Source of the DNA: the human T2T-CHM13v2.0 reference genome, Homo sapiens
Reading direction: 5' to 3' (one strand)
Assembly: GCF_009914755.1 (NCBI RefSeq)
Contig: NC_060947.1
DNA length: 64,000 nt
The notes under the pieces are model-generated. The model was not told the origin of the DNA and did no database searches. It saw nothing but the letters and a program-made list of their open reading frames with translations. Below, one piece after another: positions 5,952 through 56,785 of the stretch. Position numbers and translations under genes: made by a program. Positions within the stretch are counted from its first letter, which is position 1. Every line of letters begins with the position of its first letter.

Positions 5952-6137
5952 AATTGGTTCTCAACAATGTCTATAAACCAGAATTACCCAAGGAATACAT
6001 TTTAAAAAAATCTAGATAAGCAAGTCCTATCCCAGATCTACTAACAGTTCCTGGAAACAGGGTATGTGTATTCACATATTAAAAAATAGTTTCTCCTATG
6101 ATTTTTGAGGCATAGCCAAGGTTGAACATCACTGCCT
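5952..6137. mobile_element. MER5-family hAT-Charlie MITE
   Basis: TGGTTCTCAAC... start and GCCAAGGTTGAACATCACTG end resemble MER5 termini. Confidence 0.6.
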
Positions 6138-6159
6138 TAGGCTCATCTAGAAGAATTTT

Positions 6160-6310
6160 ATCTTTGCAACAATTCTGTGAGATATGTACTATTCCCATTT
6201 TGAAACTTGAGGCTCATAGCATGTCAATGATTGGCCAAATGTCACACAGCTAGAAATTTGCTAAGCTAAGATTCAAAGGCAGACCAGTCACTTCAAAGGA
6301 CATACCATTT
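6160..6310 (-). mobile_element. MIR
   Basis: ACAATTCTGTGAG...CCCATTTT...GAGGCTCA...GTCACACAGCTAG...GATTCAAA antisense MIR core. Confidence 0.65.
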
Positions 6311-7878: not shown

Positions 7879-7899
7879 CACAATTTTAAAACTACAGTT

Positions 7900-8050
7900 C
7901 TAATCAACTCCCCCAATTTGCTGATGAAGAAACTGAGGTCCAGAGAAATAAATTGACTTGCCCAAAGTTATACAGCATGTAGTAAATCAAGATCTAAAAT
8001 TCAAGTTTTCTCATATGAAGTCCAGTGCTCTTTCTAACACACTCAATATG
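7900..8050 (-). mobile_element. MIR
   Basis: GATGAAGAAACTGAGGTCCAGAGA...GACTTGCCCAAAGTTATACAGC. Confidence 0.75.
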
Positions 8051-17935: not shown

Positions 17936-18245
17936 GGCCAGGCCCAGTGGTTCGTGCCTGTAATCCCAGAACTTTGGGAGGCAGAGGTGGGCGGATCACT
18001 TGAGGTCAGGAATTGGAGACCAGTCTGGCCAACATGGCGAAATCCCGTCTCTATTACAAATACAAAAATTAGTCAGGAGTGGTGGTGCATGCTTGTAGTC
18101 CCAGCTACTCGGGAGGCTGAGGCAGGAGAATCACTTGAAACTTGGAGGCGGAGATTGCAGTGAGCCAATATCATGCCACTGCACTACAGCCTGGGGTAAA
18201 AGAGCGAGACCCTGTTTCAAAAAAAAAAAAAAAAAAAAAAAAAAA
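17936..18245 (+). mobile_element. AluS (Sx/Sz-like), full length
   Basis: GGCCAGGC...GGATCACTTGAGGTCAGG...dimer with long A tail. Confidence 0.96.
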
Positions 18246-19689: not shown

Positions 19690-19910
19690 TAATAATTATT
19701 GTTATTAAATAATATGTGCCCTGCACTGTTCTAAGCCTTTACATGGATTCTTTCATGAAATAACCCTCTTAGGTTATTATAATTACTATTCCAGTTTTGT
19801 AAATGAAAATACTGAGGCACAGAGAGGTAAAATAATTTTCCAAGGTCATTTATTGGCAGAATCAGGATTTGGATACAGGCTGGCTGAATCCTGATCCTGT
19901 GATTTCAAGC
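19690..19910 (-). mobile_element. MIR
   Basis: GCACTGTTCTAAGCCTTTACATGGATT...ACTGAGGCACAGAGAGGTAA...CCAAGGTCA. Confidence 0.8.
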
Positions 19911-20068
19911 TTCACCTATGTTGATGGAAAAAGGTACAAGACATAGTTCTAAGCACTTCTCATTAATTATCTCATGATTCTTCAACAATCCTTAGGAGCC
20001 AATACCATTATTAACTCTATTTGACAGATGAAGAAACTAATTCTCAAGGGTGGGGGGGAGGGAAATAA

Positions 20069-20193
20069 CTGGATGTGGTGGCCCGTGCCTGTAATCACAG
20101 TGTTTTGGGAAGCTGAGGAGGCAGGATCACTTGAACCCGGGAGTTCAAGACCAGCCTAGGCAATGTATTGAGACCTTGTCAAAAAAAAAAAAA
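20069..20193 (+). mobile_element. FLAM (Alu monomer) inserted in a MIR
   Basis: Single Alu left-type monomer ending GAGACCTTGTC-A13; antisense MIR on both sides (19945-20045, 20360-20420). Confidence 0.85.
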
Positions 20194-21333: not shown

Positions 21334-21648
21334 TCTTTTTCTTTTTTTTTTTTTTTTTTTGAGTTGGGGTCTTGCTCTGTCTCCCAGGCTGTAGTGCAGT
21401 GACATGATCATGACTCACTGCAGCCTTGAACTCCTAGACTCAACGGGTCTTCCCACCTCAGCCCCCATGTAGCTGGAACTACAGACATGTGCCACCAAGC
21501 CCAGCTAACTTACTTTATTTTATTTTTGTAGAGATAGGGTCTCGCTATTTTGTCCAGGCTGGTCTCAAACTCCTGGCCTCAAGCCATTCTCCTGCCTCAA
21601 CCTCCCAAAGTTTTGGGATTACAAACATGAGCCATGGCACTCAGCCAC
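21334..21648 (-). mobile_element. AluJ with 13-bp TSD
   Basis: Antisense Alu; TATTGAGAATCTT at 21321-21333 and 21649-21661. Confidence 0.95.
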
Positions 21649-22776: not shown

Positions 22777-23135
<359 letters not shown>

Positions 23136-29302: not shown

Positions 29303-29455
29303 GGTAGTGGTTCTTGAGATTCTTAAGCTGGGGAGCTTGTTAAAAATATATATTCTCAGGCCTCAGCTCTGCAGAAGGTCTGGGATAGGGCCAATACTCT
29401 GTATTTTGTAAGAGCCCCTTGAGTGAAAAGCACAACTATGGTTAAGAACCACTGA
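29303..29455. mobile_element. MER5-family MITE
   Basis: AGTGGTTCTT...GGGAGCTTGTTAAAA...ATTCTCAGGCC...GGTTAAGAACCACTG. Confidence 0.7.
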
Positions 29456-30164
29456 CCACTGGAAGTCCAGCAACAGCGAGTTGGGCTATTCTCATTCCCT
29501 CTTTCTCCTCATTTCAATCCCTATTCTTGCTGACTCCAAAATACATGGCAATCTTTAATGGAAGAATTGTTCAGAGTAGTTGCTGCATGGCTAATCTAGC
29601 TTTTAAAACCATACTACCTCAATAAAAATCCACCAAGCAACGTAGAAAAAATTGACAGGTTCATCTGTGCTGAGTGAACTCACTTGCCCAAGGTCCCAAG
29701 GTCATCAATGTGAATGATGAAGATGGGAACAGTATTTGGATCAGTCACAGTATATAGTCGAAGCCAGATATTGCCATTCCTTATAAATGTCTAAATCTAT
29801 AATGAGAAGGTAAGAAATTACATTATAGCAGTGCCAGAGCTTAGCTACCAGGAAAAAAAAAAAAAAAAAAAAAAAAACCTCTTCTGCAAGGATGAAACAA
29901 GAAAATTACTTGAATTTGAACAATGTGTGCTAGGTTTTATTGGGGCAGGGGGTTATTTTTAAAAAGGAAAATTAGAGTTCTAATTTAGACAACCCAACGT
30001 TATTGATTCACTGTCTTATTTAAAAATAAGGTCTGCAAGACCTTTTAGAACGTTGTCATTTTTACCCCCAGGGAAATCAGAAGTGAGCCAAGCAGAGCTG
30101 CTGATTTGTAGGTACTAGAAGTAGACCTTAGACATAGCTTCAATACTAGGGCAGGAATATGATA

Positions 30165-30295
30165 ACAGTGGCTAACAGGACAGGTTTGGAGTCAGACATA
30201 CCTGGGTTAAGAGGTTAGGCTCCATCACTTACTAGTTATGTGACCTTGAGAAAACTACTTAACCTCTCTAAGGTTCAGTTTTCCCCTTTTGTAGT
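30165..30295 (+). mobile_element. MIR
   Basis: TTTGGAGTCAGACATACCTGGGTT...TGTGACCTTGAG...CTTAACCTCTCT. Confidence 0.8.
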
Positions 30296-32992: not shown

Positions 32993-33345
32993 CAGCTGTT
33001 CTTAACCTGGAGGCCATGGAGCACAGAAATTTTATCCCTATTTCTGAGGAAGGGGAAGGTCTGTAGCTTTCCTTAGACTCTCAAAGGAATCCAAGATCCA
33101 CAAAGATTAAGAAACACTGCTACAGAGAAAACAGCAGAGATTTTGGGATCACATGGCCTTGTTCTCCAGTGCTGGCTCTAGGCTTACTAAACTACATGAT
33201 ATACTTTCTCTCTAAGTCTCAGGTTCCCCATTTGTAAAATGAGGATCATAATACCCAAATCACAGGGCTGTTGTGAGGATTAAATTAAGTTCTTTATGTT
33301 AAATGTTTGATATAGAGTAGGCACTCAAGAAACGTTAATCTCCTT
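32993..33345 (+). mobile_element. hAT-Charlie MITE (32993-33119, MER117-like) followed by MIR (33120-33345)
   Basis: CAGCTGTTCTTAACC...GATTAAGAAACACTG TIRs; then TTTGTAAAATGAGGAT...GTTGTGAGGATTAAAT...GTAGGCACTCAA. Confidence 0.65.
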
Positions 33346-34315: not shown

Positions 34316-35289
34316 GTAAGAAATATTTGGAAATATTACGATGTTAATCCCGGTGAAGTGAGAGGCATTATTTTATTTATCGGCAGGTGTGACAAATAGG
34401 CACCATCTGCTGCAGAAGATACAGCAACTCCTACTTGAGCGAGCTTATTACTTAATGGCTCCAGCCACTGAAGAAGCATTTGCTGCTGGAATCGTTTTTT
34501 CACAGGGTGATGTGGAACTAGACACACTTCTCTCTCTCAGTTTTTTCTCCTCAGCTAGGAAGATAAATATAAATAGAATGTATTAACTCTTAAAAGCTGA
34601 TATCAGTTGATAGTTTTGAATTTCTTTTCTGAATTGTTCCACTGAAGGTTTTCCTTAACTACTTGATGAGATTTCAGCTCTGGAATTATATAGGCAGGTG
34701 TCATGCAGAAAAATGTAAAATTACCAGTGGGTTGTTCCCAGAACCTTATCATGTTAAAGAAAATAAAAGTAACTACTAGGAGCACCCTGAGAACCAAACA
34801 GAGATCAGGGTACACTTATTTTATATCTCCAGCACCTAAAAAAGTGTCTGGAACTTGATTGGCACTCAATAAATGTTTGCCAAAGAAATGTTAATCTGAT
34901 TTTGGAGGCCTGTGGAGAACTTGGTTGCTCTTGCTACAAATAAGTTTCACTCAAAGAATCCCTCTCGGGCTTGATTGATGCAGAAAGTTATTCCCTTATC
35001 ATTCTGGGGAGCAAAATTCATGATCTAGGAGTGTATGTTATTTTGCTCCTATGAGGTTATATACACTATGCTGATGTCAAAAATTAGTGAGAACTTGACA
35101 TTTCAATGTTTATACTAAAAACACAAGACTTTTTGTTACTAAGATTTTATTTACCAAATTAATGACAAAATATGCAATTAGAAAACCAAAGGTGCATATT
35201 CATGTCACTTGTGAGTATTTTGGTTTACATTAGAAGTGAAGTAAACCAGATGTACAAGTTAATATTGGACATTGACCAGTTATTAAACA

Positions 35290-35560
35290 CTTTCTCTTTT
35301 CCCTTTCCCCCAAACTTCTCTTCCTCTTTTTTTGCTCCATTCTTTCTCAATATTACCTCCTTCCCTTCCTTCTCCCCCTCATAATCACTCATTTCCTGCC
35401 CCATCTTATCTCCATCCCACATCCCTCATAGTCTTTACTCATTTCTCACATTTCTTTCTTTTCCTCCTCTCTCCCTTCCCTCTTCCTCTATCTTCCTTTC
35501 TTTCTTTCCCTAATTCCTTACCCCCTTTTCCATTCCTCACTCTCCTCCTTTTCCCTCAAC
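35290..35560. repeat. CT-rich low-complexity tract
   Basis: Direct reading. Confidence 0.85.
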
Positions 35561-36489
35561 AGCTTTCAATCACTTTTACAAAGACTAGAAACTGATTTTT
35601 ATTGCATGAGCTTTCCAGAAAGAACTGCAGGATACTAAAATAATTCTTTCCACAAAAAATCATATCCTTCAGAATTAATAGAATTTGAATTCCTTTTGAA
35701 ATTGCATGGTTGTTTTTCTTTCCAAATGGTGCAGAGCTTTTAACAGAGCAATCATATTATCTGTGCAACTCATTAATTAGTTAGCAAAGAGAGCCATGAC
35801 AATCCTGTTTGAAAAGCTTTTATGAGAAGTAGTCACAGATATAGGACCAGAGTAACAAAAAAGAGGATTTCCTAATATCTAACGTTGCATTTATTCATTT
35901 CAAAGTCCTTAATGGATTTAAGGAATTAAATTGATAAACCTCCCTAAATTGACCAGACTGTTTGGTCTCCCGAAGACTGTAGAGGCTTTAAGAAATATGT
36001 GATTAGCTAGTTTTCCAAACTTTCAAAGGAAATGTTTAAAGAAATTGACAAGGTTAGCTGAGATCATTGTTCTCTAAGCTTCTCCAAGCTTCATAGAATT
36101 CTAATAAATATTGAATAAGTATTCAGACCTAAGGAAGATTCAGAGTCAATTGTGTAGGAGGCAGAAAATGTAGTATCAATTGTTATTGAAAATTATCTGC
36201 AGACACAAGTGAACTTTCTAAAATTTAATTTAAAATCTAACCAATCCCATGTAGTTTTCCTTTAAAATCTTGTAACTGAAATAGCACTTCATGAAGAGAG
36301 TTTCTAACAAGGTGATAATTTCTTAATTCTAGATTATAATCTGGAATTTAGTCTCCAATAAGAAATTGAACAGTGGGGGAAGGGAATAAAAAGAAAAGAG
36401 AAAGTTATATTCTTCTCCAAGCTATATTAGCAATCGGATCAGAGATAAGACTGTGCCTCTCTTTGAACTGTAAATGTTAGGTACATTTC

Positions 36490-36930
36490 TTCATCATACC
36501 CATGCATTTATTCAATAATTCTTGAGCAGCTACTGCAAGCAAAGCTGTATCAGGGATAGACTGCTGAAAATGATCCTCAAGAATTTTGTAAGTTACAATT
36601 TAGAAGAAAACATATCAACTAGATACCTGCAATATTTGTCAAATTTAATTCCTCTAAGAGAAATACAAAGCATTGTGGAAATTAGGGTTAGGGTGGAAAG
36701 TCAAGATCAGCTTCATGAACTAAATCTTGAAGAATTGTAGTATTTCCTCACCCAGAGATGTGTGAAGATAGAAGGAACTGGTCAAACAAAAATGTGGAAG
36801 CAGGGAAGTAGGTAAGAGTGAGCATTACAGTTTTATTGGAAAGAGGGTAATGGAAGGAATTAAGGTAAGCCAGGGCCAAGGCATTGACAGCCTTAAATGT
36901 CAAGCTAAGGAGAATGGAGTAAAATCCAAA
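36490..36930 (-). mobile_element. L2 remnant
   Basis: ATGCATTTATTCAATAATTCTTGAGCAGCTACTG is the antisense L2 tail; GCCTTAAATGTCAAGCTAAGGAG. Confidence 0.6.
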
Positions 36931-37107
36931 GGCAACATGTAGACTTCCAACATTTTATTTCTTTTTCCTTTTTCATTCCACTAGACTAGTTATAAATAAA
37001 TTGTATAGTAATAAAATATAGAATAAAATAGCAAGTTGAAGATTACACAGTTTGGTATATTTTTTATAAAGTTCAAAACAAATAATACTAACATCGTTTA
37101 GGCATAG

Positions 37108-37131
37108 GGGTGTGTGTGTGTGTGTGTGTGT
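37108..37131. repeat. (GT)n microsatellite in an L1ME remnant
   Basis: Direct reading. Confidence 0.9.
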
Positions 37132-37749
37132 AAATAAAAGGAAGGTAATGAGTCACAAAATTCAGAATATTGGTTATTGGTTATTTCTGGAGAAGGATAG
37201 GTAAGAGGATGAGATGGGAGGAGCATAGGTAGATGTCGTGTAAATTATTAGTTATTCTCAATCTTAAAGTTGGTAGATGTTTGCCCACAGATGTTTGTCC
37301 ATGGGTGTTCAATATATTATTAAATAAGTGAATAAAAAGAGCTCAAATTTACCAGTGATGACAATGTGCCATAAACCAAGGAGTATGACTTACCTGATTC
37401 TGTATACTTGGGGTCCAAAAGGGAGTATAAAGATACTAGAATAGTGTAGAGGTTTCTCCCACTTGACTTGCACTAGCAGTGAGTGTTTATTTTTCCTTAC
37501 CCTTCTTTTCTGGAAGGCAGGTGAAAAAGTAACTTAGGAGATACATGGGTGAAAAATCCATTAAGCTCTTATCTCTAGGTTACTACCATTCTTAAGGAAA
37601 GGAGCTGCTGGGAGAAGTGGTGAGGAGGAAGGCCAGTGAGACTGACAACCTATATATGAAGCACTCTGAATACATAGTGAAGCAATTGAGCTGTGTGGGC
37701 TGTCTGGGACTGTTAGAGTCCTGATTTGAAGTGCTCTGTTCTATTTGTA

Positions 37750-38120
37750 GACTGGTGTTTCTCAGCCCTGGCTGCATATCAAAATCACCTGTGGAGCTTT
37801 TAAGCAATACAGATGTTCATGCCCCATACAGAGCTACTGAATCAGAAACCCTGAAGAAAAGACCCAGTTATATATATTTTCAAAAACATACTAAGTAATA
37901 TTAAAGTAGAGCAAGGACTGAAAAACATTCCCTGAAGAGTGTGCTTAGAAACAAGTGGGTAACTTGTTTCAAACATTGATTCCAGGATACTGTCCCCAGA
38001 GATTCTAATCTAAGAAAAAAGGGAAAGGGTCTGGGAAAGGGTCCGTGTTTTTATTCATAATAAACACCCTGTAGGTGATTCTGATGAAGGCACTTCCCTT
38101 GACCACTCTGAGAAACACTG
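37750..38120. mobile_element. Two adjacent MER5-family MITEs
   Basis: TGTTTCTCAGCCCTGGCTGCATATCAAAATCACCTG...; CCCCAGAGATTCTAATC...GGTGATTCTGATG...CTCTGAGAAACACTG. Confidence 0.75.
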
Positions 38121-38162
38121 CCCCAAAGGTTCCAAAACACTAGGGTTTCAGGGTGATTAGTC

Positions 38163-38588
38163 CATATATTTGCTTCCTAAAACTGCCATAAAAAATTGTA
38201 TAAGCTAGGTGACTTAAAACAACAGAAATTTATTCTTTCAGGCCTGGAGTATAGAAGTCTGGAATCATGGCATCAGTAGGGCCGTGCACTCTCTGAAATC
38301 TGTAGGGTAGACTCCTTCCTTGCCACTTCGAGCCTCTGGTATTTGCTGGCAATCCTCAGCATTCCTTGGCTGGTAGATGCACCACTCTAATCTCTGCCTC
38401 TGTCTTCTGCTTGTATGCCTCTGTCTTCTCCTCTTCTTGTGAGAACACCAGTCATTATATTAGGGCCAACCTAATATATTGACTTGATTCCATCTACAAG
38501 GTCTTATTTCCAAATAAGGTTACATTCACAGTTACTGGAGTTTAGGACTTCACCATTTTTGGGGGGTGACACTATTCACCCATAACAC
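38163..38588 (-). mobile_element. MLT1 (MLT1C-like) MaLR LTR
   Basis: GGTGACTTAAAACAACAGAAATTTATTCT...CATTCCTTGGCT...TTTCCAAATAAGGT...CACTATTCACCCATAACA. Confidence 0.85.
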
Positions 38589-39174
38589 TGTTTTAAATGC
38601 TTTTAAAAGTACAGCCTCCAAACAACCAATAAGATAGATTAGCTGTATTCTTTAGCTGGGCTATCTAGAGAGAAAAAACAATAATTAACTCTCAAAGCTC
38701 AGTATACAAAGAAATACTTGAAAGGCTTGTGTTTAGTATGCGTATTCCTGGGCCTTGATCCCAGCTAATCAAATATCAAAATAGCTGCACTTGTAAGGAT
38801 AGAAAAATGTTTCCTAGACCATTGCTCCAAATATAGTGGAAAGATATTATATATCTCTCTCTCTCTCTCTGCTCTTGTTTCTTATGAACCAAGTTATTCT
38901 GTATGGGCAATAGGAACAGTAAGCAGGTAGACTAAGAAAAATATGGATTATGGAAAGTATAGTAACGTGGGCTAGGGAATACAAACTTTAAGCTGAAGTG
39001 TTCCCAAGCTGGGGGCAAAATTCAATATGATAGGAAAAATAATGTGACCGTTGGAGCTATTTCTATGAACTCTCCTTGGGTATGTTAACAACAGACAGAA
39101 CTAGGCTACATTGTTAGCAATCTACTATTGCACATAGAAGTGTGACAGGTGATGGTTGTTTATATTGTTTATTT

Positions 39175-39894
39175 TAGCCACCCATATTCAAAATTCATGT
39201 TTAGAATGGCAAGTTAAATCATTTTGGAAGACTTCAGCAGTGAATAGTTGACCCTATTTACACAGTGGAATGTTTTTGCCAATAAAAAGAAGGTTCTAGC
39301 TTTACCAACGATAAAGCATGCAGTGCATTTATTTGCTCAGAATAGGCATACCCTCTCAATTCCTTCTGGTCTATAACTATTGGGGGGAAATGTCTATTTC
39401 CACTCTACAGATCTAAATGAGAGAGATAGAACAAAAAAAGAAAATTGGAGGAAGCCTGCATTCCTGAATGTTCCCCTGATTCATTAAAGTAACAATTGTC
39501 ACTGGGATCTGGAGATTGAAAAACAATTCCTTAAACTTAGGATTCCTTTGTTTCAGTGCTAGGCTTTCTGGTTCAACTAGATCAGTGGTTCTTAGTCCTG
39601 GCTGCGCTTTGAAGTTACTTGGAAAAGACTTTATTGCTTTTCTTCTATCTCTCTTATTTAGATATGTGGGGTAAAAATAGACATTTTTCCCCAGTGTTTT
39701 TAGACCAGAAGGAATTGAGAGGGTGTGCCTATTCTGAGCAAATAAATGCATCCTTCATCATTGGTATAGATAGAACCTTCTTTTTGTGGGCAAAAGCATT
39801 CCACCATGTAAATAGGGTCAACTATTTACTGCTGAAGTCTTCCAAAATGATTTAACTTGGCATTCTAAACATGAACTTTGAATATGGGTGGCTA
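39175..39894. repeat. Long non-Alu inverted repeat: arms 39175-39431 and 39643-39894, 211-nt spacer
   Basis: Manual alignment: 252 aligned positions, 26 substitutions, one 5-nt indel (~90% identity). Confidence 0.97.
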
Positions 39895-40080
39895 TTTTTT
39901 TTTTTAATAGCAGTGCTTGGGTCCCATCCCAGACCAATAAAGTCTGAATCTCTAGAGTGGTGCCCAGGCCCCTACTGTGGAGATTATGATTCAGGAAGTC
40001 TAGGTTTGGGCCCAGGATCTGTATATTAATAAGTACCCCCAAGTAAATCTTATGATCAGTTGGTTTAGAAAACGTTGTTC
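39582..40080. mobile_element. MER5-family element split by the right arm of the inverted repeat
   Basis: 5' part CAGTGGTTCTTAGTCCTGGCTGC...ACTTT (39582-39632); continuation GCTTGGGTCCCATCCCAGACCAATAAAGTCTGAATCTCT...CCCAGG from ~39895. Confidence 0.7.
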
Positions 40081-41075
40081 TAATATAGGTTAGTCATTAG
40101 CTGCTGTTTACTGATGTGATTTTTTTCTTTAACCTTTTAAAAGCTATTTTCTACAGAGAAGAAAAAGCATTCTAAAATTAGTTTGCATATAGCAAACCAT
40201 TTTGCAATTTATCAATTTATTTTTATTTCAAAATACATTGCCATTTGTTTTTCTTAGAGATAACTGAATCTTTTATTTTTGTTTTTGATTTTCAGGAAAA
40301 TCAATATCTGTTGGAGAATCTGAAGAGCCAAATCTCCTGAGCCTAGGCCTACTGCTGTCAGCATCTCTGAGACCTCTCTCACCTGAGAATTACCAGGTCT
40401 GACAACACTTTCCCTCCAGCCTACAGTGAGGGATGTCAACAAAGCTACAGAAAACTCACATTCTGTAGACTTACAAGCTGTGCAGCTGGGCAGGAACCTT
40501 ACAATCTCCATCCTTAGGGAAGGTTCAGAAATACAGATAAACGGGGTGAAAACTCAGATAAGCTGAGCCTGATATATACAAAAGCCTTCAGATAGTCTCC
40601 TCGCAGAAGAGCCCAATTAAGTCCACATAATTAGTCCACACATCTAGATTAGGTATAGGCAAAACGAGCCTTTTCTCCATCTACGAAAACAGAGCAAAAC
40701 ACTGATATAATACTCTAAAAGATTCTTGTTCTAATAACAGTATTATAAAGCAGTTTCACCCATATTTATTTTAATCAGTATAAAAGTAGGAGTGTGGAAA
40801 ATAAAACATTACTTGTATTTTTAAAAATTGATTAAGAAGCTCTGATAAAACCTATTGGAGGGGCGATTGCTGTGCTGAAGGATAGAGAGGGTGTTGCAAT
40901 TGTCAAATAGCATCACCATTTTCTGCTTGTGTGCTATTGCCTTAGCTCTGAGAGTGATTGGTTTTTACCAGATTGTTAGAACACGTCCAATAGATTTAGA
41001 GACAGTCTAAGTGACTGTGAAATGCCTCAAGGGCAGTAGAAATCAAATAGAAACACATACTAACTCAAGTCTTGA

Positions 41076-47637: not shown

Positions 47638-50232
47638 GAATATTGATGCAAAAGTCCTCAACAAAATACTAGCGAACTAATTTCAACAATACATTAAAAA
47701 GATCACTCATCACGACCAAGTGAGATTTATTCCAGGGATGCACGGATGGTTCAATATACACAAACCAATGAATGTGATACATCATAATAATAGAATGAAA
47801 GCCAAAACCATATAATCATTTGAATTGATGCTTAAAAAGCATTTTATAAAATTCAACATCCCTTCATGATGAAACCCTCAAAAACTGGCTATAGAAGGAA
47901 CATACCTCAACATGAAAAAAGCCATATATGACAGACCCACAGCTAGTATTATATTGAATGGGGAAAAACTGAAAGCCTTTCTTCTAAGCTTTGGAACACG
48001 ACAAAAATGCCCACTTGCACCACTGTTACTGAACATAGTACTGAAAGTCCTAGCTAGAGCAATCAGACAAGAGAAAGAAATAAAGGGCATCCAAAATGGA
48101 AAGAAGGAAGTCGAATTATATCTGTTTGCAGACGATATGATCTTCTATTTGGAAAAACCTAAAGAGACCACCAAAATCTATTAGGATTTTTAAACAAATT
48201 CAGTAAAGTTGCAGGATACAAAATCAACATGCAAATATCAGTAGCATTTTTACATGCTAACAGTGAACAATCTGAAAAAGAAATCAAGAAAGTAATCTCA
48301 CTTACAATAGCTACAAATAAAATTAATCACCTAAGAATTAACTAAAGAAGTGAAAGATCTTCTGCAATGAAAATTACAAAACACTGATGAAAGCAATTGA
48401 AGAGGACACACAAAAAAATGGAAAGATATTCCATGTTCATGGATTGGAACAATCAATACTGTTAAAATGTCCATACTAACCTCAGCAATCTATAGATTCA
48501 ATACAATCCCTATCAAAATACCAATGACATGCTTCACAAAAATAGGAAAAAAAATCCTAAATTTTATATGGAACCACAAAAGACCCAGAGTAGCTAAAGC
48601 TATCCTGAGCAAAAAGAACAAAACTGGAGGAATCACATTACCTAACATCAAATTATACTATAGAGCTAGAGTAACTAAGACAGCATGGTACTGGCATAAA
48701 AACAGACACATAGACCAATGGAACAGAATAGAGAACCCAGAAACATATCCACACACCTACAGTGAACTCATTTTTAACAGAGGTGTCAAGAACATGTGTT
48801 AGAGAAAGAACAGTCTCTTCAATAGTGGTGCTGGGAAAACTGGATATCCATATGCAGAAGAATGAAACTAGATCCCATATCTTGCCATATACAAAAATAA
48901 AATAAAAATGAATTAAAGAATTAAATCTAAGACCTTGAATTATAAAAATGCTACAGGAAAACATTGGGGAAACTCTCCAGGACATCTGCCTGGGCAAAGA
49001 TTTCCTGAGTAATACCCCACAAGTAGAGGCAACAAAGCAAAAGTGGAGGAAACGAGTCACATCAAGCTGAAACTTCTGCACAGCAAAGGAAATGATCAAC
49101 AAAGCGAAGAGTGACAGAAAATATTTGCAAACTACCCATCTGATGAGGGATTAATAACCAGAATATATAAGAAGCTCCAGCAACTCTATAGGGAAAAGCC
49201 TAATAATCCAATTTAAAAATGGGCCAAAGATTTAAATACACAGTTCTCAAAAGAAAACACACAAATGACAAATAAGCATATGAAAAGGTGCTCAACATCA
49301 TTGATAATCAGAGAAACGCATATCAAAAGTACAATGAGATATCATTTCATCCCAGTTAAAATGGCTTTCATCCAAAAGACCAGCAATAACAAATGCTGGT
49401 GAGGATGTGGAGAAAAGGGAACATTTTTACACTGTTAGTGGGAATGTAAATTAGTACAACCACTATGGAAAACAGTTTGGAGGTTCCTCAAAAAAATGAA
49501 AAACTGACCTGCCATATCATCCAGCAATCCCACTGCTGGGTATATACTCAAAAGAAGGGAAATCGGTATGTCGAAGAGATATCTGCACTCACATGTTTGT
49601 TGCAGCACTGTTCACAATAGCCAAGATTTGGAAGTGACCTAAGTGTTCATCATCAGATGAATGGATGAAGAAAATGTGGTGCTTATACGCAATGGAGTAC
49701 TATTCAGCCATAAAAAGAATGAGATCCTGTCATTTGCAACAACATGGATGGAACTGGATGTCGTTACGTTAAGTGAAATAAGCCACGTACAGAAAGACAG
49801 ACACCACATGTTTTCACTTATTTGTGGTATCTTCAAACCAAAACGATTGAATTCATCGACATAGAGAGTAGAAGAATGGTTACCAGAGGCTGGAAATAGT
49901 AGTTGGGGGATGAGGGGGAGGTGGAGATGGTTAATGGGTTGAAGAAAAATAGAAAGAATGAACGAGACCTAGTATTTGATATCACAAGACCTAGTATTTG
50001 ATAGCACAACAAGGTGACTATATCAATAAAAACTTAATTGTACATTTTAAAATAACTAAAAAAGTATAATTGGATTGTTTGTAACACAAAGGATGAATGC
50101 TTCAGGGGATGAATACTCCATTTTTCATAATTTTGTTATTACATATTACATCCCTGTATCAAAATTTCTCATTTACCCCATATGTACATACACCTACTAT
50201 GTACTCACAAAAATTAAAAATGTTAAAAAATC
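47638..50232 (+). mobile_element. 5'-truncated L1 (L1MA1/2-like), ORF2 RT to 3' end
   Basis: ORFs 47912..48184 and 48467..48802 are L1 ORF2 ([21 protein letters not shown]; [17 protein letters not shown]); 3' end CACCTACTATGTACTCACAAAAATTAAAAA. Confidence 0.95.
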
Positions 50233-54102: not shown

Positions 54103-56785
54103 CTCTACTGTCCAATATGGTATTTAGTAGGTACATGTGGCTATTGAGCACTTGATATATGACTAGTCCAAATTAAGATGCACTATAAGTATAAATTGCA
54201 CTTTGGATTTCAAAGACATAATATTAAAAAATGTAAAATATATCATTCAAAATTTTTGCACTGATTGTATGTTGAAAATGATAACCTTTGGGGATACATT
54301 AGATTATATAAAATACAATATTTTTATTTTTTATTGATACATAATGGATGTACATATTTTGAGGTACACCTGATAATTTAATATATTCATATAATTTGTA
54401 AAGATCAAATCAGTATAAATGTTATCCATCACCTTAAATATCTTTCAAATATCTTAATGCTAGAAACATTCCAATTATTCTCTTCTAGCGATTTTGAAAT
54501 ATACAATAGATTCTTGTAAATTATAGTCACCCTAGTGATTTATCAAACACTAGGCCTATTTCTTCCATCAGATTGTATGGCTGTACCCATTAATCAACCT
54601 CTCTTTATTCCCTCTTTCTCCCATACTCTTGGCCTTTGATAACCACCAATCTACTCTCTATCTTCATGAGATGCACTTTTTTAGCTCCTACCTATGAGTG
54701 AGAACATGCAATATTTGTCTTTCTGTGCTTGGCTTATTTCACTTAACATAATGACCTCCAGCTCCATCCAAGTTTCTGCAAATGACATGCTTTCATTCTT
54801 TTTATGCCTGAATAATATTCCATTGTGTATATATATCACATTTTCTTTATCCATTCCAATCATTGATGGGCCCTTAGGTTAAACCCATATTTTGGCTATT
54901 GTGAATAGTGCTGCAATAAACATGGGAGTGCAGATATCTCTTCAATATATTGATTTTCTTTCTTTTGAATATATGCACAGTAGTGGAATTTCTGAATCAT
55001 ACAGTAATTCTGTTTTTAGATTTTTGAGGAACCTCTCTATAGTTTCCCGTAATAGCCGTTTACTTCCTAATAGCTGTTTACTTCCAATTTAGATTCCTAT
55101 CAATAGTGTGTGTTGGGGGGAGTCCATTTCCCCCACATCCTTTTCTTCATGGTTCAATTTTGGTAGGTTATATGTGTGCAGGAATTTACCCATGTTTTCT
55201 AGGTTTTCCAGTTTGTTGGCATATAGTTGTGCCTAATAGTCTCTAATTGTTCTTTGTATTTCTGTTGTCTCAGTTTTCATTTATGATTTTATTGATTTAT
55301 ATAGTATCTCCTTTTCCTTAGTCTACCTAAAGGTTTGCTGATTTTATTTATCTTTTTTAAAAAAACAACTTGTGGTTTAATTGAGCTTTTGTATTGTTTT
55401 TTAATCTAAATTTTAGTTTTTCTCTGATGTTTATTATTTCTTTCCTTCTACTAATTTTGGGTTAGATTTTTTTTATTTTCTAGTTCTTTGAGGTGCATTG
55501 ATAGGTTTTTGAAGTCTTTCTATTTATTTGATGTAGGCATTTATTGCTATTAAGATCCCTCTTAGTGCTGCTTTTGCTATATCCCATATATTTTGGTATA
55601 TTGTATTTCCATTTTCATTTGTTTAAAGAAATTTTTTAATTTCCTTATTAATTTCTTAATTAATACAGTGGTTGTTCAAGAGAATGTTGTTTAATCTCTA
55701 CATGTTCATGAAGTTTCTAAGGTTCCTCTTGTAATTGATTGCAACTTTTGTTCCATTGTGGTCAGAAAAGATAATTGATATGATTTCTATCTTTTAAATT
55801 TTGTTGAGAATTATTATGTGACCTAAGATATGATCTATTCTGGAGAATGTTCCATGTGCTGATGAAAAGAATGTGCATTCTACAGCAGTTGTTTGAAATG
55901 TTCTGTAAACGTCAGTTAGGCCTAGCTGGTCTAGTGTGTACTTCAATTCAAATGTTTCTTTGTTTATTTCCTCCCTGGATGATCTGTCCACTACTGAAAG
56001 GAGGGTGTTAAAGCCTCCTTCTATTATTGTATTGTATTCTATCTTTCCCTCTAAATCTATGCATGTTTGCTTTGTATACTTGGAAGCTCTGGTGTTGGGT
56101 GCATAAATATTTATAATTGTCATATCTTCTTGCTAAATTGACCCCTTTATCATTATATAGTGACCTTCTTTGTCTCTTTTTACAGTCTTTAATTTGTAGT
56201 CTATTTTTATCTGATATAAGCAAAGCTACTCCTGTTCTTTTTTTGGTTTCCATTTGTCCTCAGGGATATTTATTTCTTTAGGCATTCCTGATGCTTTCAA
56301 TGGGATGAAGCAGGGACAGGTCTCCTGCCAAGGAACCCAAGATGCTGGGGAAGCTGATTGTCTACCTCTATCTCACTTTTTCCAGTGCAGAAACCATGAA
56401 TCAGGGCAAACTTTTCCATGCCTGTGGTGCAGGGCAGATTGAGTGGAAGGGCATTGTGAATATCGAAATCCTATTCTCTTACCATCTGCTCAGAGTTTTT
56501 TCACTTCTGTATGGCCATGGGAACTGTCTCATCCTCATATTTGAGCTCTGGGATAGTGCTGCTGAGAAACTTGGTACTGTATATTGGTTCTTGGGTTTTT
56601 TTTTATTGGGGAGTAAAGCCAACTTGTTTCTATCCTGCCATTTTGGAATCAAAATCCAACATGCAATATTTAAATTAATATCACCTGTTTCTTTTCACCT
56701 TTAGAATTGTGGCTAGTAGAAAATGTAAAATTACGCATGTGGCCCTGTTTTTTGCTAACATTATATTTCTATATAACAGTGCTAT
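54103..56785. mobile_element. MER33-like MITE split in two (54103-54320, 56670-56785)
   Basis: CTGTCCAATATGGTA...CATGTGGCTATTGAGCACTTGA; resumes AAATTAATATCACCTGTTTCTTTT...TGTGGCTAGTAGAAAAT. Confidence 0.75.
54321..56660 (-). mobile_element. Internally deleted L1MA-type element (5'UTR piece + endonuclease segment + 3' end)
   Basis: ORF 55794..56123(-) TIINIYAPN...FFSSAHGTFSRIDHILGH is the L1 endonuclease; L1MA 3' end at 54321-55140; CAATATTT on both flanks. Confidence 0.85.

What the first reader, a model, noticed from the sequence alone, without database searches (positions are those of the whole stretch)
39175..39894. 252-bp non-Alu inverted repeat in the last SERTM2 intron: predicted long dsRNA hairpin next to the coding exon
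Seen: 39175-39431 is the reverse complement of 39643-39894, with 252 aligned positions, 26 substitutions, one 5-nt indel and a 211-nt loop. One 50-nt run (39324-39373 vs 39701-39750) has a single difference. On the sense (+) RNA, 11 differences become G-U wobbles, 7 become A-C mismatches and 8 are transversions, so ~237/252 positions pair. In the loop-proximal 108 bp the G-U:A-C ratio is 8:2; the overall 11:7 is not significant. The arms match no repeat I recognise. The stem ends ~400 nt before the 3' splice site at 40295 and covers two AATAAA hexamers (39281, 39741). Established: long intramolecular duplexes with A-C mismatches are ADAR substrates and can be bound or cut by dsRNA proteins. 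Inference: an editing, splicing or small-RNA module that could tune output of the SERTM2 microprotein.
Basis: partly seen in the sequence, partly recalled or inferred. Interest (0 to 1): 0.8.

Follow-up and report, generated by a model that had tools for sequence, protein, structure and literature searches.

The report
Local inverted duplication forming intronic hairpin
A 257-base stretch of the last SERTM2 intron was copied backwards into an old transposon fossil 200 bases downstream, giving a real but apparently neutrally drifting hairpin-forming repeat with no sign of being a regulatory device.

Summary
The inverted repeat is real. Arms 39175-39436 and 39638-39894 align over 257 positions with 27 substitutions and one 5-nt indel, around a 201-nt loop. 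The + RNA folds at -420.5 kcal/mol, z -33.7.

The arm occurs only twice in the assembly, as the two arms, so it is not a dispersed repeat or a transposon's terminal repeats. A profile of a dispersed MITE family maps collinearly to 39583-39627 and 39906-40073, on either side of the right arm. Removing the arm in silico fuses these into one hit; shifted control excisions do not. The right arm is therefore a derived, reverse-complement copy of the left arm. It was most likely inserted in one step by template switching or templated break repair.

Divergence looks neutral: 18 transitions to 9 transversions, G-U:A-C 11:7 (p = 0.48), and both strands fold about equally. No Rfam family matches.

If transcribed, the stem is a good ADAR substrate on structural grounds. 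It brackets no exon, hides no splice signal and leaves with the intron. Nothing supports a module tuning SERTM2. This is a new member of a known kind, of low to moderate interest.

The parts
39175..39436 (.). Left arm: the source (ancestral) copy, 262 nt
   Evidence: Aligns in reverse complement to 39638-39894. Interrupts no recognisable element. Only two places in the whole assembly match it, itself and the right arm. No other hit with E below 1.5 in 154,690 bases of held DNA.
39430..39444 (+). A-rich tract straddling the inner boundary of the source arm; candidate microhomology or priming site
   Evidence: Read. Homology between the arms ends inside this tract, at 39436/39638 give or take about 4 nt.
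39437..39637 (.). Loop or spacer, 201 nt: original intron sequence plus the left piece of the interrupted MITE
39583..39627 (+). Left piece of an old dispersed MITE copy (profile positions 1-45), lying inside the loop
   Evidence: nhmmer E 1.4e-7 with a profile of 30 genomic copies. The terminal motif occurs 160 times in the assembly against 0 for the reversed control.
39628..39637 (.). 10 nt of uncertain origin at the inner junction: filler, decayed MITE T/A run, or decayed continuation of the copy
   Evidence: Excising 39628-39894 gives the best restored MITE hit (54.7 bits), but other cut points score 46.0-53.0, so the assignment is open.
39638..39894 (.). Right arm: derived reverse-complement copy of the left arm, 257 nt, inserted into the MITE
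   Evidence: Flanked on both sides by collinear pieces of one MITE copy. Excision fuses them into one hit over model 1-117; 4 shifted control excisions do not.
39895..39905 (+). Run of 11 T at the outer junction; corresponds to the MITE's own T/A run (profile positions 46-52), possibly lengthened or duplicated
39906..40073 (+). Right piece of the interrupted MITE copy (profile 53-117 and 59-174, with an internal overlap)
   Evidence: nhmmer E 4.9e-5 and 5.8e-8. 70-77% identical to the profile consensus.
40294..40295 (+). AG of the 3' splice site of the last SERTM2 intron (context only; 400 nt beyond the stem)
   Evidence: exon start 40296 from the hub's annotation.

Best explanation
This is a fossil of one local mutational event. 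A 257-262-nt piece of the SERTM2 intron (39175-39436) was copied in reverse-complement orientation and inserted about 200 nt downstream, into the T/A run of a much older MITE copy. The most likely process is a DNA-level template switch: during replication or break repair, a nascent strand ending in the MITE's T run annealed to the A-rich tract at 39430-39444 on the opposite strand, copied back to 39175, and returned. This has the geometry of a '3-2-1-4' template-switch event but is about ten times longer than the usual ones. The two arms have since drifted apart neutrally to 10.5% difference, which implies tens of millions of years. In the SERTM2 pre-mRNA the arms would fold into a duplex of about 257 bp, 94% paired. 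I expect that duplex to be promiscuously edited by ADARs in the nucleus and discarded with the intron, as a by-product without regulatory purpose. Shown: the repeat, its uniqueness in the genome, the interrupted MITE and hence which arm is the copy, the neutral-looking substitution pattern, and the predicted fold. Inferred: the template-switch mechanism, the age, the editing, and the lack of function.
For: (1) The arms are reverse complements over 257 aligned positions, 89.5% identical. (2) A whole-assembly search with the left arm returns 2 of 2 candidates, the arm itself and the right arm. nhmmer of the arm against 154,690 bases finds nothing else below E 1.5. (3) The motif at 39583 is the terminus of a dispersed family: 160 genomic matches, 0 for the reversed control. 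A profile of 30 copies matches 39583-39627 (model 1-45), 39906-39969 (model 53-117) and 39959-40073 (model 59-174), all on the + strand and collinear. (4) All five in-silico excisions tried at or near the arm's borders fuse the 26.0-bit and 16.6-bit hits into one hit from model position 1 to 111-117, at 46.0-54.7 bits. None of 4 shifted control excisions does. (5) The MITE pieces are 70-77% identical to the family consensus, while each arm is about 5.7% from the arms' common ancestor (K2P 0.114 between arms). The MITE is therefore much older than the duplication. (6) The inner junction falls where the source's A-rich tract meets the target's T run, which suits microhomology-primed switching. 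(7) Template switching that copies a nearby fragment in reverse complement and creates inverted repeats is documented in human and primate genomes. Type 3-2-1-4/1-4-3-2 makes up 31% of high-confidence human-chimp events (PMC5453318, passages). Such events gave over 6,000 hairpins in primates, and the miRNAs they generated are enriched in introns (PMC10710096, passages). (8) Neutral pattern: Ts:Tv 18:9; G-U:A-C 11:7, p = 0.48; longest stretch with at most one mismatch P = 0.25; + and - strand folds -420.5 and -394.6 kcal/mol.
Against: No outgroup genome could be consulted, so the empty site (an intact MITE) is inferred, not seen. The junctions are low-complexity T/A runs eroded by drift. Microhomology, target duplication and the 10 nt at 39628-39637 therefore cannot be resolved, and the excision variants score within 9 bits of each other. 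[quoted passage not shown] If the T run is duplicated on both sides, switch point 4 would precede point 1, an order that paper did not observe. The genome search misses copies at 70-77% identity, so the source arm could still belong to a very old family. That would not change the conclusion of a local duplication. Neutrality rests on 27 differences in one species, which gives low power. The mild G-U excess on the sense strand (11:7 overall, 8:2 in the inner part) points in the direction selection for pairing would give.
Confidence: 0.8

Rival explanations
1. Functional dsRNA module. Whatever its origin, the hairpin has been kept because ADAR editing, dsRNA-binding proteins or Dicer-type cleavage acting on it tune splicing into the last exon or the output of SERTM2.
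For: The stem is long and well paired: 241 of 257 positions, with uninterrupted runs of 53 and 50 bp. That is above the medians reported for edited dsRNAs: 144 bp for non-repetitive ones, 31 contiguous bp overall, and 84.7% paired for repetitive ones. The sense strand has more G-U than A-C (11:7; 8:2 in the inner part) and folds 26 kcal/mol better than the antisense strand. SERTM2 is expressed in motor neurons (abstracts).
Against: Neither G-U:A-C ratio is significant (p = 0.48 and 0.11), Ts:Tv is 2.0, and the best-conserved stretch is within chance (P = 0.25). Recalled, not tested: transcription-associated mutation asymmetry is expected to produce a mild G-U excess on the sense strand by itself. 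Both arms lie in one intron, no splice signal lies in the stem, and the 3' splice site is 400 nt away. No Rfam family matches. A search for LINC00890 with 'RNA editing' found 0 papers. The SERTM2 papers do not mention it.
Confidence: 0.07
2. RNA-templated copy made in cis. A LINE-1 endonuclease/reverse transcriptase nicked the MITE's T/A run, and the T run primed on the A-rich tract of a sense SERTM2 pre-mRNA fragment. Reverse transcription then laid down the reverse complement of 39175-39436.
For: The orientation fits. The end of the right arm that corresponds to the source's A-rich tract abuts the T-rich left side of the insertion site, and a T run also follows the insert, as a short target duplication would. 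A T-run/A-run target is the kind of site I recall LINE-1 endonuclease preferring (recalled, not tested).
Against: Retrocopies land almost anywhere in the genome, so 201 nt from the source would be an extreme coincidence, whereas template switching is inherently local. There is no true poly-A tail, only the source's own genomic A-rich tract. Any target duplication is no more than a T run. I know of no precedent for cis retro-copying of an intron fragment (recalled, not searched).
Confidence: 0.06
3. The two arms are the terminal inverted repeats of a single DNA transposon or MITE, or two independent insertions of one dispersed repeat in opposite orientations (as in inverted Alu pairs).
For: Many human MITEs are palindromic. 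The repeat starts and ends with a short palindromic dinucleotide that could be read as a target duplication.
Against: No third copy exists in the assembly at comparable identity. One half of the interrupted MITE lies inside the loop and the other outside the right arm, which cannot happen if arm-loop-arm inserted as one unit. Neither the profile of the MITE family nor that of the SINE-like family matches the arms.
Confidence: 0.02
4. Assembly artefact: a false palindrome produced by a chimeric read.
For: None specific.
Against: The arms differ at 27 positions and one 5-nt indel and are separated by 201 nt of unrelated sequence. By inference, artefactual fold-backs would be near-identical and abutting.
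Confidence: 0.01

Closest known systems
Template-switch mutations of the four-point model, type 3-2-1-4 / 1-4-3-2 (Loytynoja & Goldman 2017, PMC5453318; Monttinen et al. 2023, PMC10710096; passages read)
   Same: [quoted passage not shown] This creates an inverted repeat and an RNA hairpin in a transcribed intron with no need for selection. The order of the points along the sequence fits: source end, source start, departure, return.
   Different: The copy is about 257 nt. [quoted passage not shown] The spacer is 201 nt. Possible duplication of the target's T run would be an order of switch points not seen in that data set. The ancestral state was not observed here.
Fold-back or templated inverted insertions at DNA breaks, and large inverted duplications with spacers (PMC11724301 and PMC3907307; abstracts in search listings only)
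   Same: Inverted copy of adjacent sequence separated by a spacer, attributed to fold-back priming or microhomology.
   Different: [quoted passage not shown] This one is of intermediate size, old and fixed in the germline.
Inverted Alu pairs, the main human intramolecular dsRNAs and ADAR substrates (dsRNAscan preprint, PMC11838218, sections 6, 7, 9, 10)
   Same: Intronic stem of about 250-300 bp that would be edited and removed with the intron. The other close inverted pairs in this window are of this repeat-derived kind.
   Different: The arms are not a dispersed repeat but a unique local duplication. The spacer is 201 nt, against 2.7-4.8 kb for the other pairs in the window, and pairing is 88-91% against 73-83%. 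It belongs to the preprint's minority class of non-repetitive dsRNAs: under 10% of predictions, of which 4,597 are edited.
Long, highly paired dsRNAs suspected as MDA5 ligands (same preprint, section 10)
   Same: Long, rod-like intramolecular duplex on chrX.
   Different: It falls below both thresholds (257 bp against over 300; 93.8% against over 96%). It is wholly intronic, so it should not reach the cytoplasm.

Membership tests
Template-switch mutation, event type 3-2-1-4 | [quoted passage not shown] | tested here: met
   257 aligned positions, 89.5% identical, source 201 nt upstream; no other copy in the assembly.
Template-switch mutation, event type 3-2-1-4 | The copy replaces or is inserted at a single point of otherwise continuous ancestral sequence (points 1 and 4 adjacent, both downstream of 3 and 2) | tested here: met
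   Collinear MITE pieces flank the right arm. All 5 excisions tried restore one hit starting at model position 1 and ending at 111-117; none of 4 control excisions does.
Template-switch mutation, event type 3-2-1-4 | The ancestral (outgroup) sequence lacks the copy | not testable with these tools
   No primate or other mammalian genome is held. Only the window's own assembly can be searched (header).
Template-switch mutation, event type 3-2-1-4 | [quoted passage not shown] | tested here: not met
   The copy is 257 nt. The paper's stated scope is in the passages. So this works like a template switch but lies outside the size class in which the family was described.
Terminal inverted repeats of one DNA transposon or MITE | Family present in multiple copies in the genome | tested here: not met
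   2 of 2 candidates are the arms themselves. Sensitivity is limited to fairly close copies.
Terminal inverted repeats of one DNA transposon or MITE | The whole arm-loop-arm unit interrupts its target, so target sequence lies outside both arms | tested here: not met
   One piece of the interrupted MITE is inside the loop (39583-39627) and the other is beyond the right arm (39906-40073).
Inverted pair of a dispersed repeat (Alu/SINE/LINE type dsRNA) | Each arm matches a dispersed repeat family | tested here: not met
   No hit in the arms from either profile: the MITE family or the SINE-like family. The SINE-like profile found 11 copies elsewhere in the window at E < 0.01. No other hit in 154,690 bases. 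Dfam and RepeatMasker were not available.
LINE-1-mediated retrocopy | Untemplated poly-A tail and a 7-20-nt target-site duplication | tested here: inconclusive
   The insert ends in the source's own A-rich tract. Only T runs are shared by the two junctions, and both are eroded and low-complexity.
Known structured RNA family, including miRNA precursors | Match to a curated covariance model | tested here: not met
   0 matches at gathering score in the whole window. In 38500-40700 at E <= 1 there are only 2 matches, to bacterial sRNA models and far below their gathering scores.
ADAR hyper-editing substrate (editing-enriched intramolecular dsRNA) | Long, mostly uninterrupted intramolecular duplex within one transcript | tested here: met
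   241 of 257 positions paired, runs of 53 and 50 bp, MFE z -33.7. Both arms lie in the SERTM2 intron according to the hub's annotation.
ADAR hyper-editing substrate (editing-enriched intramolecular dsRNA) | Clusters of A-to-G changes observed on both arms in RNA-seq | not testable with these tools
   No access to REDIportal or RNA-seq. 0 papers for LINC00890 with 'RNA editing'. The supplements of the dsRNAscan preprint, which may list this structure and its editing status, are closed.
MDA5-class long, highly paired dsRNA | More than 300 bp and more than 96% paired (preprint's definition), and present in a cytoplasmic RNA | tested here: not met
   257 bp and 93.8% paired. It is intronic.

The most novel reading that the evidence does not exclude
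A primate-lineage accident created, in one step, a 257-bp dsRNA in the intron just upstream of the exon that encodes a conserved motor-neuron micropeptide. This young hairpin has since been co-opted: it is hyper-edited or bound by dsRNA-binding proteins in neurons, and so modulates removal of the last intron or nuclear retention of the SERTM2 transcript in primates only. A second unexcluded oddity is that the copy was made from nascent SERTM2 pre-mRNA by reverse transcription in cis.
Probability: 0.07. Interest if true: 0.55.

Novelty: new member of a known kind. Interest (0 to 1): 0.25.

Why it matters
As it stands, the main value is as a clean natural example. Because the copy landed inside a recognisable old transposon fossil, source and copy can be told apart from a single genome. 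The event is also about ten times longer than the template-switch mutations usually catalogued, which suggests that class grades into larger inverted duplications. It also belongs to a minority class: non-repetitive structures make up under 10% of the human dsRNAs predicted by the dsRNAscan preprint. For SERTM2 biology it matters only if the hairpin proves to be edited or to affect splicing in motor neurons, and nothing here indicates that. Showing that a striking 257-bp stem follows from one mutational event plus neutral drift guards against reading function into it.

Tried and rejected
1. Ancient SINE fragment in the arm. By eye, the inner part of the arm resembled a SINE core. A profile built from 30 genomic copies, collected with a primer-length recalled motif (826 genomic matches, 0 control), found 14 hits in the window at E <= 1, 11 of them below 0.01. 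None lay in 39175-39894. Rejected.

2. Whole-assembly DNA searches with the two flanks of the right arm returned only themselves, and blastn with word size 7 inside the window did the same. These tools are too insensitive for old repeats, so the MITE had to be shown with a profile.

3. Single-sequence nhmmer of the arm against the window plus 30 loci found nothing beyond the two arms.

4. Exact junctions. I compared the sequence beyond both ends of the homology and five excision variants. No clear microhomology or target duplication beyond T/A runs could be established.

5. Selection for pairing was tested with Ts:Tv, G-U against A-C, run-length permutation and strand comparison. All were negative, with low power.

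6. Literature. Searches for SERTM2 (28 papers, 20 listed; the two main ones searched for 6 terms) and for LINC00890 with 'RNA editing' (0 papers) gave nothing on this hairpin. In PMC12019361 the word 'inverted' occurs once, in a passage not shown to me.

8. A hAT transposase hairpin footprint was considered and dropped without a test. As I recall, such footprints are a few nucleotides long and sit at element ends, not inside.

Full report
**Observation.**
- The repeat finder reports two abutting inverted pairs: 39175-39322 with 39747-39894 (148 nt, 91%) and 39324-39436 with 39638-39750 (113 nt, 88%). It finds no direct repeats in 38800-40400.
- A gapped alignment joins the pairs. The left arm is 39175-39436 and the right arm 39638-39894, with 230 matches, 27 mismatches and one 5-nt indel (39319-39323), around a 201-nt loop.
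- On the + strand RNA, 11 differences become G-U, 7 become A-C and 9 are other mismatches. That leaves 241 of 257 positions paired (93.8%), with uninterrupted runs of 53 and 50 bp.
- The + strand of 39150-39920 folds at -420.5 kcal/mol, against -188.7 +/- 6.9 for 20 shuffles (z -33.7; none of the 20 folds as well).
- The AATAAA hexamers at 39281 and 39741 and the AG at 40294-40295 are as stated.

**Not a repeat family.**
- A search of the whole 3.1-Gb assembly with the left arm found two candidates and two matches: the arm itself and the right arm at 88%.
- This tool misses old repeats. The flanks, which I later showed to be a dispersed element, found only themselves. So the result excludes copies of roughly the arms' own similarity, not ancient relatives.
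- nhmmer with the arm against 154,690 bases (the window plus 30 unrelated loci) gave nothing else below E 1.5.
- My own guess that the inner arm contains an ancient SINE core failed. A profile of 30 genomic copies found 11 copies in the window at E < 0.01 and none in the arms.
- Rfam has no match at gathering score anywhere in the window. Around the hairpin it has only two far-sub-threshold matches to bacterial sRNA models.

**Which arm is the copy.**
- Reading the sequence, the two sides of the right arm looked like halves of one palindromic MITE.
- The 23-nt degenerate motif at 39583 occurs 160 times in the assembly (89 forward, 71 reverse), against 0 for the reversed control.
- A profile of 30 of these copies (233 positions) matches the window as below. 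All three matches are on the + strand and collinear.

| Profile positions | Window | E-value |
|---|---|---|
| 1-45 | 39583-39627 | 1.4e-7 |
| 53-117 | 39906-39969 | 4.9e-5 |
| 59-174 | 39959-40073 | 5.8e-8 |

- The missing profile positions 46-52 are the family's T/A run. In the window the gap holds 10 nt of unclear origin (39628-39637), the right arm, and a run of 11 T (39895-39905).
- Removing the arm in silico, with five choices of cut points, turns the separate 26.0-bit and 16.6-bit hits into one hit from model position 1 to 111-117, at 46.0-54.7 bits. Four excisions of the same length, shifted by 80 or 150 nt, do not.
- Because the element is palindromic, the left piece also matches the minus orientation. 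The rest of the element would still lie to its right, and those hits fuse too.
- So the right arm interrupts a pre-existing element, one half of which now sits in the loop. This rules out arm-loop-arm being a single transposon with long terminal repeats. It identifies the left arm as the source and the right arm as the derived copy.
- The MITE pieces are 70-77% identical to the family consensus. Each arm lies about 5.7% from the arms' common ancestor (K2P 0.114). So the MITE is several times older than the duplication.
- I recall this family as MER5-like (hAT-Charlie). That name comes from no tool.

**Mechanism of origin (inferred).**
- A reverse-complement copy of sequence 201 nt away, placed at a single point, has the geometry of a template-switch event of type 3-2-1-4 in the four-point model.
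- That type creates inverted repeats and made up 31% of high-confidence human-chimp events (PMC5453318, passages).
- The same process is credited with over 6,000 hairpins in primates. [quoted passage not shown]
- The inner junction lies where the source's A-rich tract (39430-39444) meets the target's T run. That would let a nascent strand ending in T's re-anneal to the opposite strand.
- Templated break repair by fold-back priming would leave the same scar, and I cannot separate the two.
- The event is much longer than those catalogued. The paper's scope is a few tens of bp, and the filters require only at least 10 or 15 nt. It is much smaller than the large inverted duplications, which include many genes, that form by fold-back (abstract).

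**The LINE-1 rival.**
- A LINE-1-type reverse transcription of sense pre-mRNA, primed on the A-rich tract, also fits the orientation and the T runs on both sides.
- It needs an insertion 201 nt from the source by chance. It also has neither a true poly-A tail nor a clear target duplication.
- I give it about 6%.

**Age (inference; rates recalled).** A K2P distance of 0.114 between the arms is of the order of the human to New World monkey distance. At about 1e-9 substitutions per site per year, this points to roughly 30-60 million years. Gene conversion between the arms would make that an underestimate.

**Test for maintenance (unless stated).**
- The 27 differences are 18 transitions and 9 transversions.
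- Only 1 lies in a CpG context.
- G-U against A-C is 11:7 (p = 0.48) overall and 8:2 (p = 0.11) in the inner part.
- A stretch with at most one mismatch as long as the observed longest (53 nt) occurs in 25% of permutations.
- The antisense strand folds nearly as well: -394.6 kcal/mol, z -32.9.
- There is thus no sign of selection for pairing on the sense strand, though 27 sites in one species give little power.
- Recalled, not tested: the small G-U excess is in the direction that transcription-associated mutation asymmetry would produce anyway.

**What it does.**
- By the hub's annotation, both arms lie in the last SERTM2 intron (34316-40295).
- The stem brackets no exon, so it cannot promote back-splicing.
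- It ends 400 nt before the 3' splice site and covers no splice signal.
- Structurally it exceeds the medians reported for edited human dsRNAs: 144 bp for edited non-repetitive ones, 31 contiguous bp, and about 85% paired (dsRNAscan preprint, section 7).
- It falls short of the class suspected as MDA5 ligands, which needs more than 300 bp and more than 96% paired (section 10). It also leaves with the intron.
- My reading: where SERTM2 is transcribed the duplex forms, ADARs edit it promiscuously in the nucleus, and it is degraded with the intron as a by-product.
- The preprint counts about half a million non-repetitive predicted dsRNAs, of which 4,597 are edited on both arms (section 6). Elsewhere it gives about 2 non-repetitive dsRNAs per Mb (section 9).
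- Within this window the hairpin is the closest and best-paired inverted pair. The five other pairs have spacers of 2.7-4.8 kb and 73-83% complementarity. Nine of their ten arms fall in the repeat-masked blocks that the hub lists.

**Literature on the gene.**
- The search for SERTM2 found 28 papers, of which 20 were listed.
- The two EMBO Reports papers of 2025 describe a conserved motor-neuron micropeptide. Neither contains 'intron', 'hairpin' or 'dsRNA', and the shown passages with 'editing' concern genome editing or author roles.
- LINC00890 together with 'RNA editing' gave 0 papers.
- I found no description of this hairpin in those searches.

**Verdict.**
It is a real, non-Alu, long predicted dsRNA and a plausible ADAR substrate, but nothing shows it to be a regulatory module.
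- It is a new member of a known kind: a hairpin born by a local inverted templated insertion. It is unusual for its size, and for the fact that the polarity of the event can be read from one genome.
- Interest is 0.25.

Noticed in passing
window 37759-37928 and 37945-38134: Two further copies of the same MITE family lie almost back to back, about 1.5 kb upstream of the hairpin in the same intron (E 1.2e-16 and 7.4e-10). More copies are at 29328-29464 and 6006-6151. Being palindromic, each is itself a short potential hairpin.
   Followed up: partly
window 39906-40073: The right part of the interrupted MITE matches the profile twice with overlap (positions 53-117, then 59-174). The copy therefore carries an internal duplication of about 60 positions, or is two truncated copies side by side.
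   Followed up: no
window 33133-33310, 30148-30279, 7899-8032, 6156-6299, 19811-19910 and six weaker sites: Eleven copies of an ancient SINE-like family (collected with a recalled core motif; 826 exact genomic matches) at E < 0.01. One lies just upstream of SERTM2 exon 1.
   Followed up: no
window 17948-18195, 20063-20143, 21383-21634, 22846-22977; 49659-49837 with 54678-54856: Five other inverted pairs with 2.7-4.8-kb spacers and 73-83% complementarity. All arms but one lie in the blocks the hub lists as repeat-masked. They are ordinary repeat-derived potential dsRNAs.
   Followed up: no
PMC11838218, sections 6 and 9: The dsRNAscan preprint gives two figures for non-repetitive dsRNAs that do not obviously agree: about half a million in section 6 and about 2 per Mb in section 9. 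The second may refer to the edited subset.
   Followed up: no
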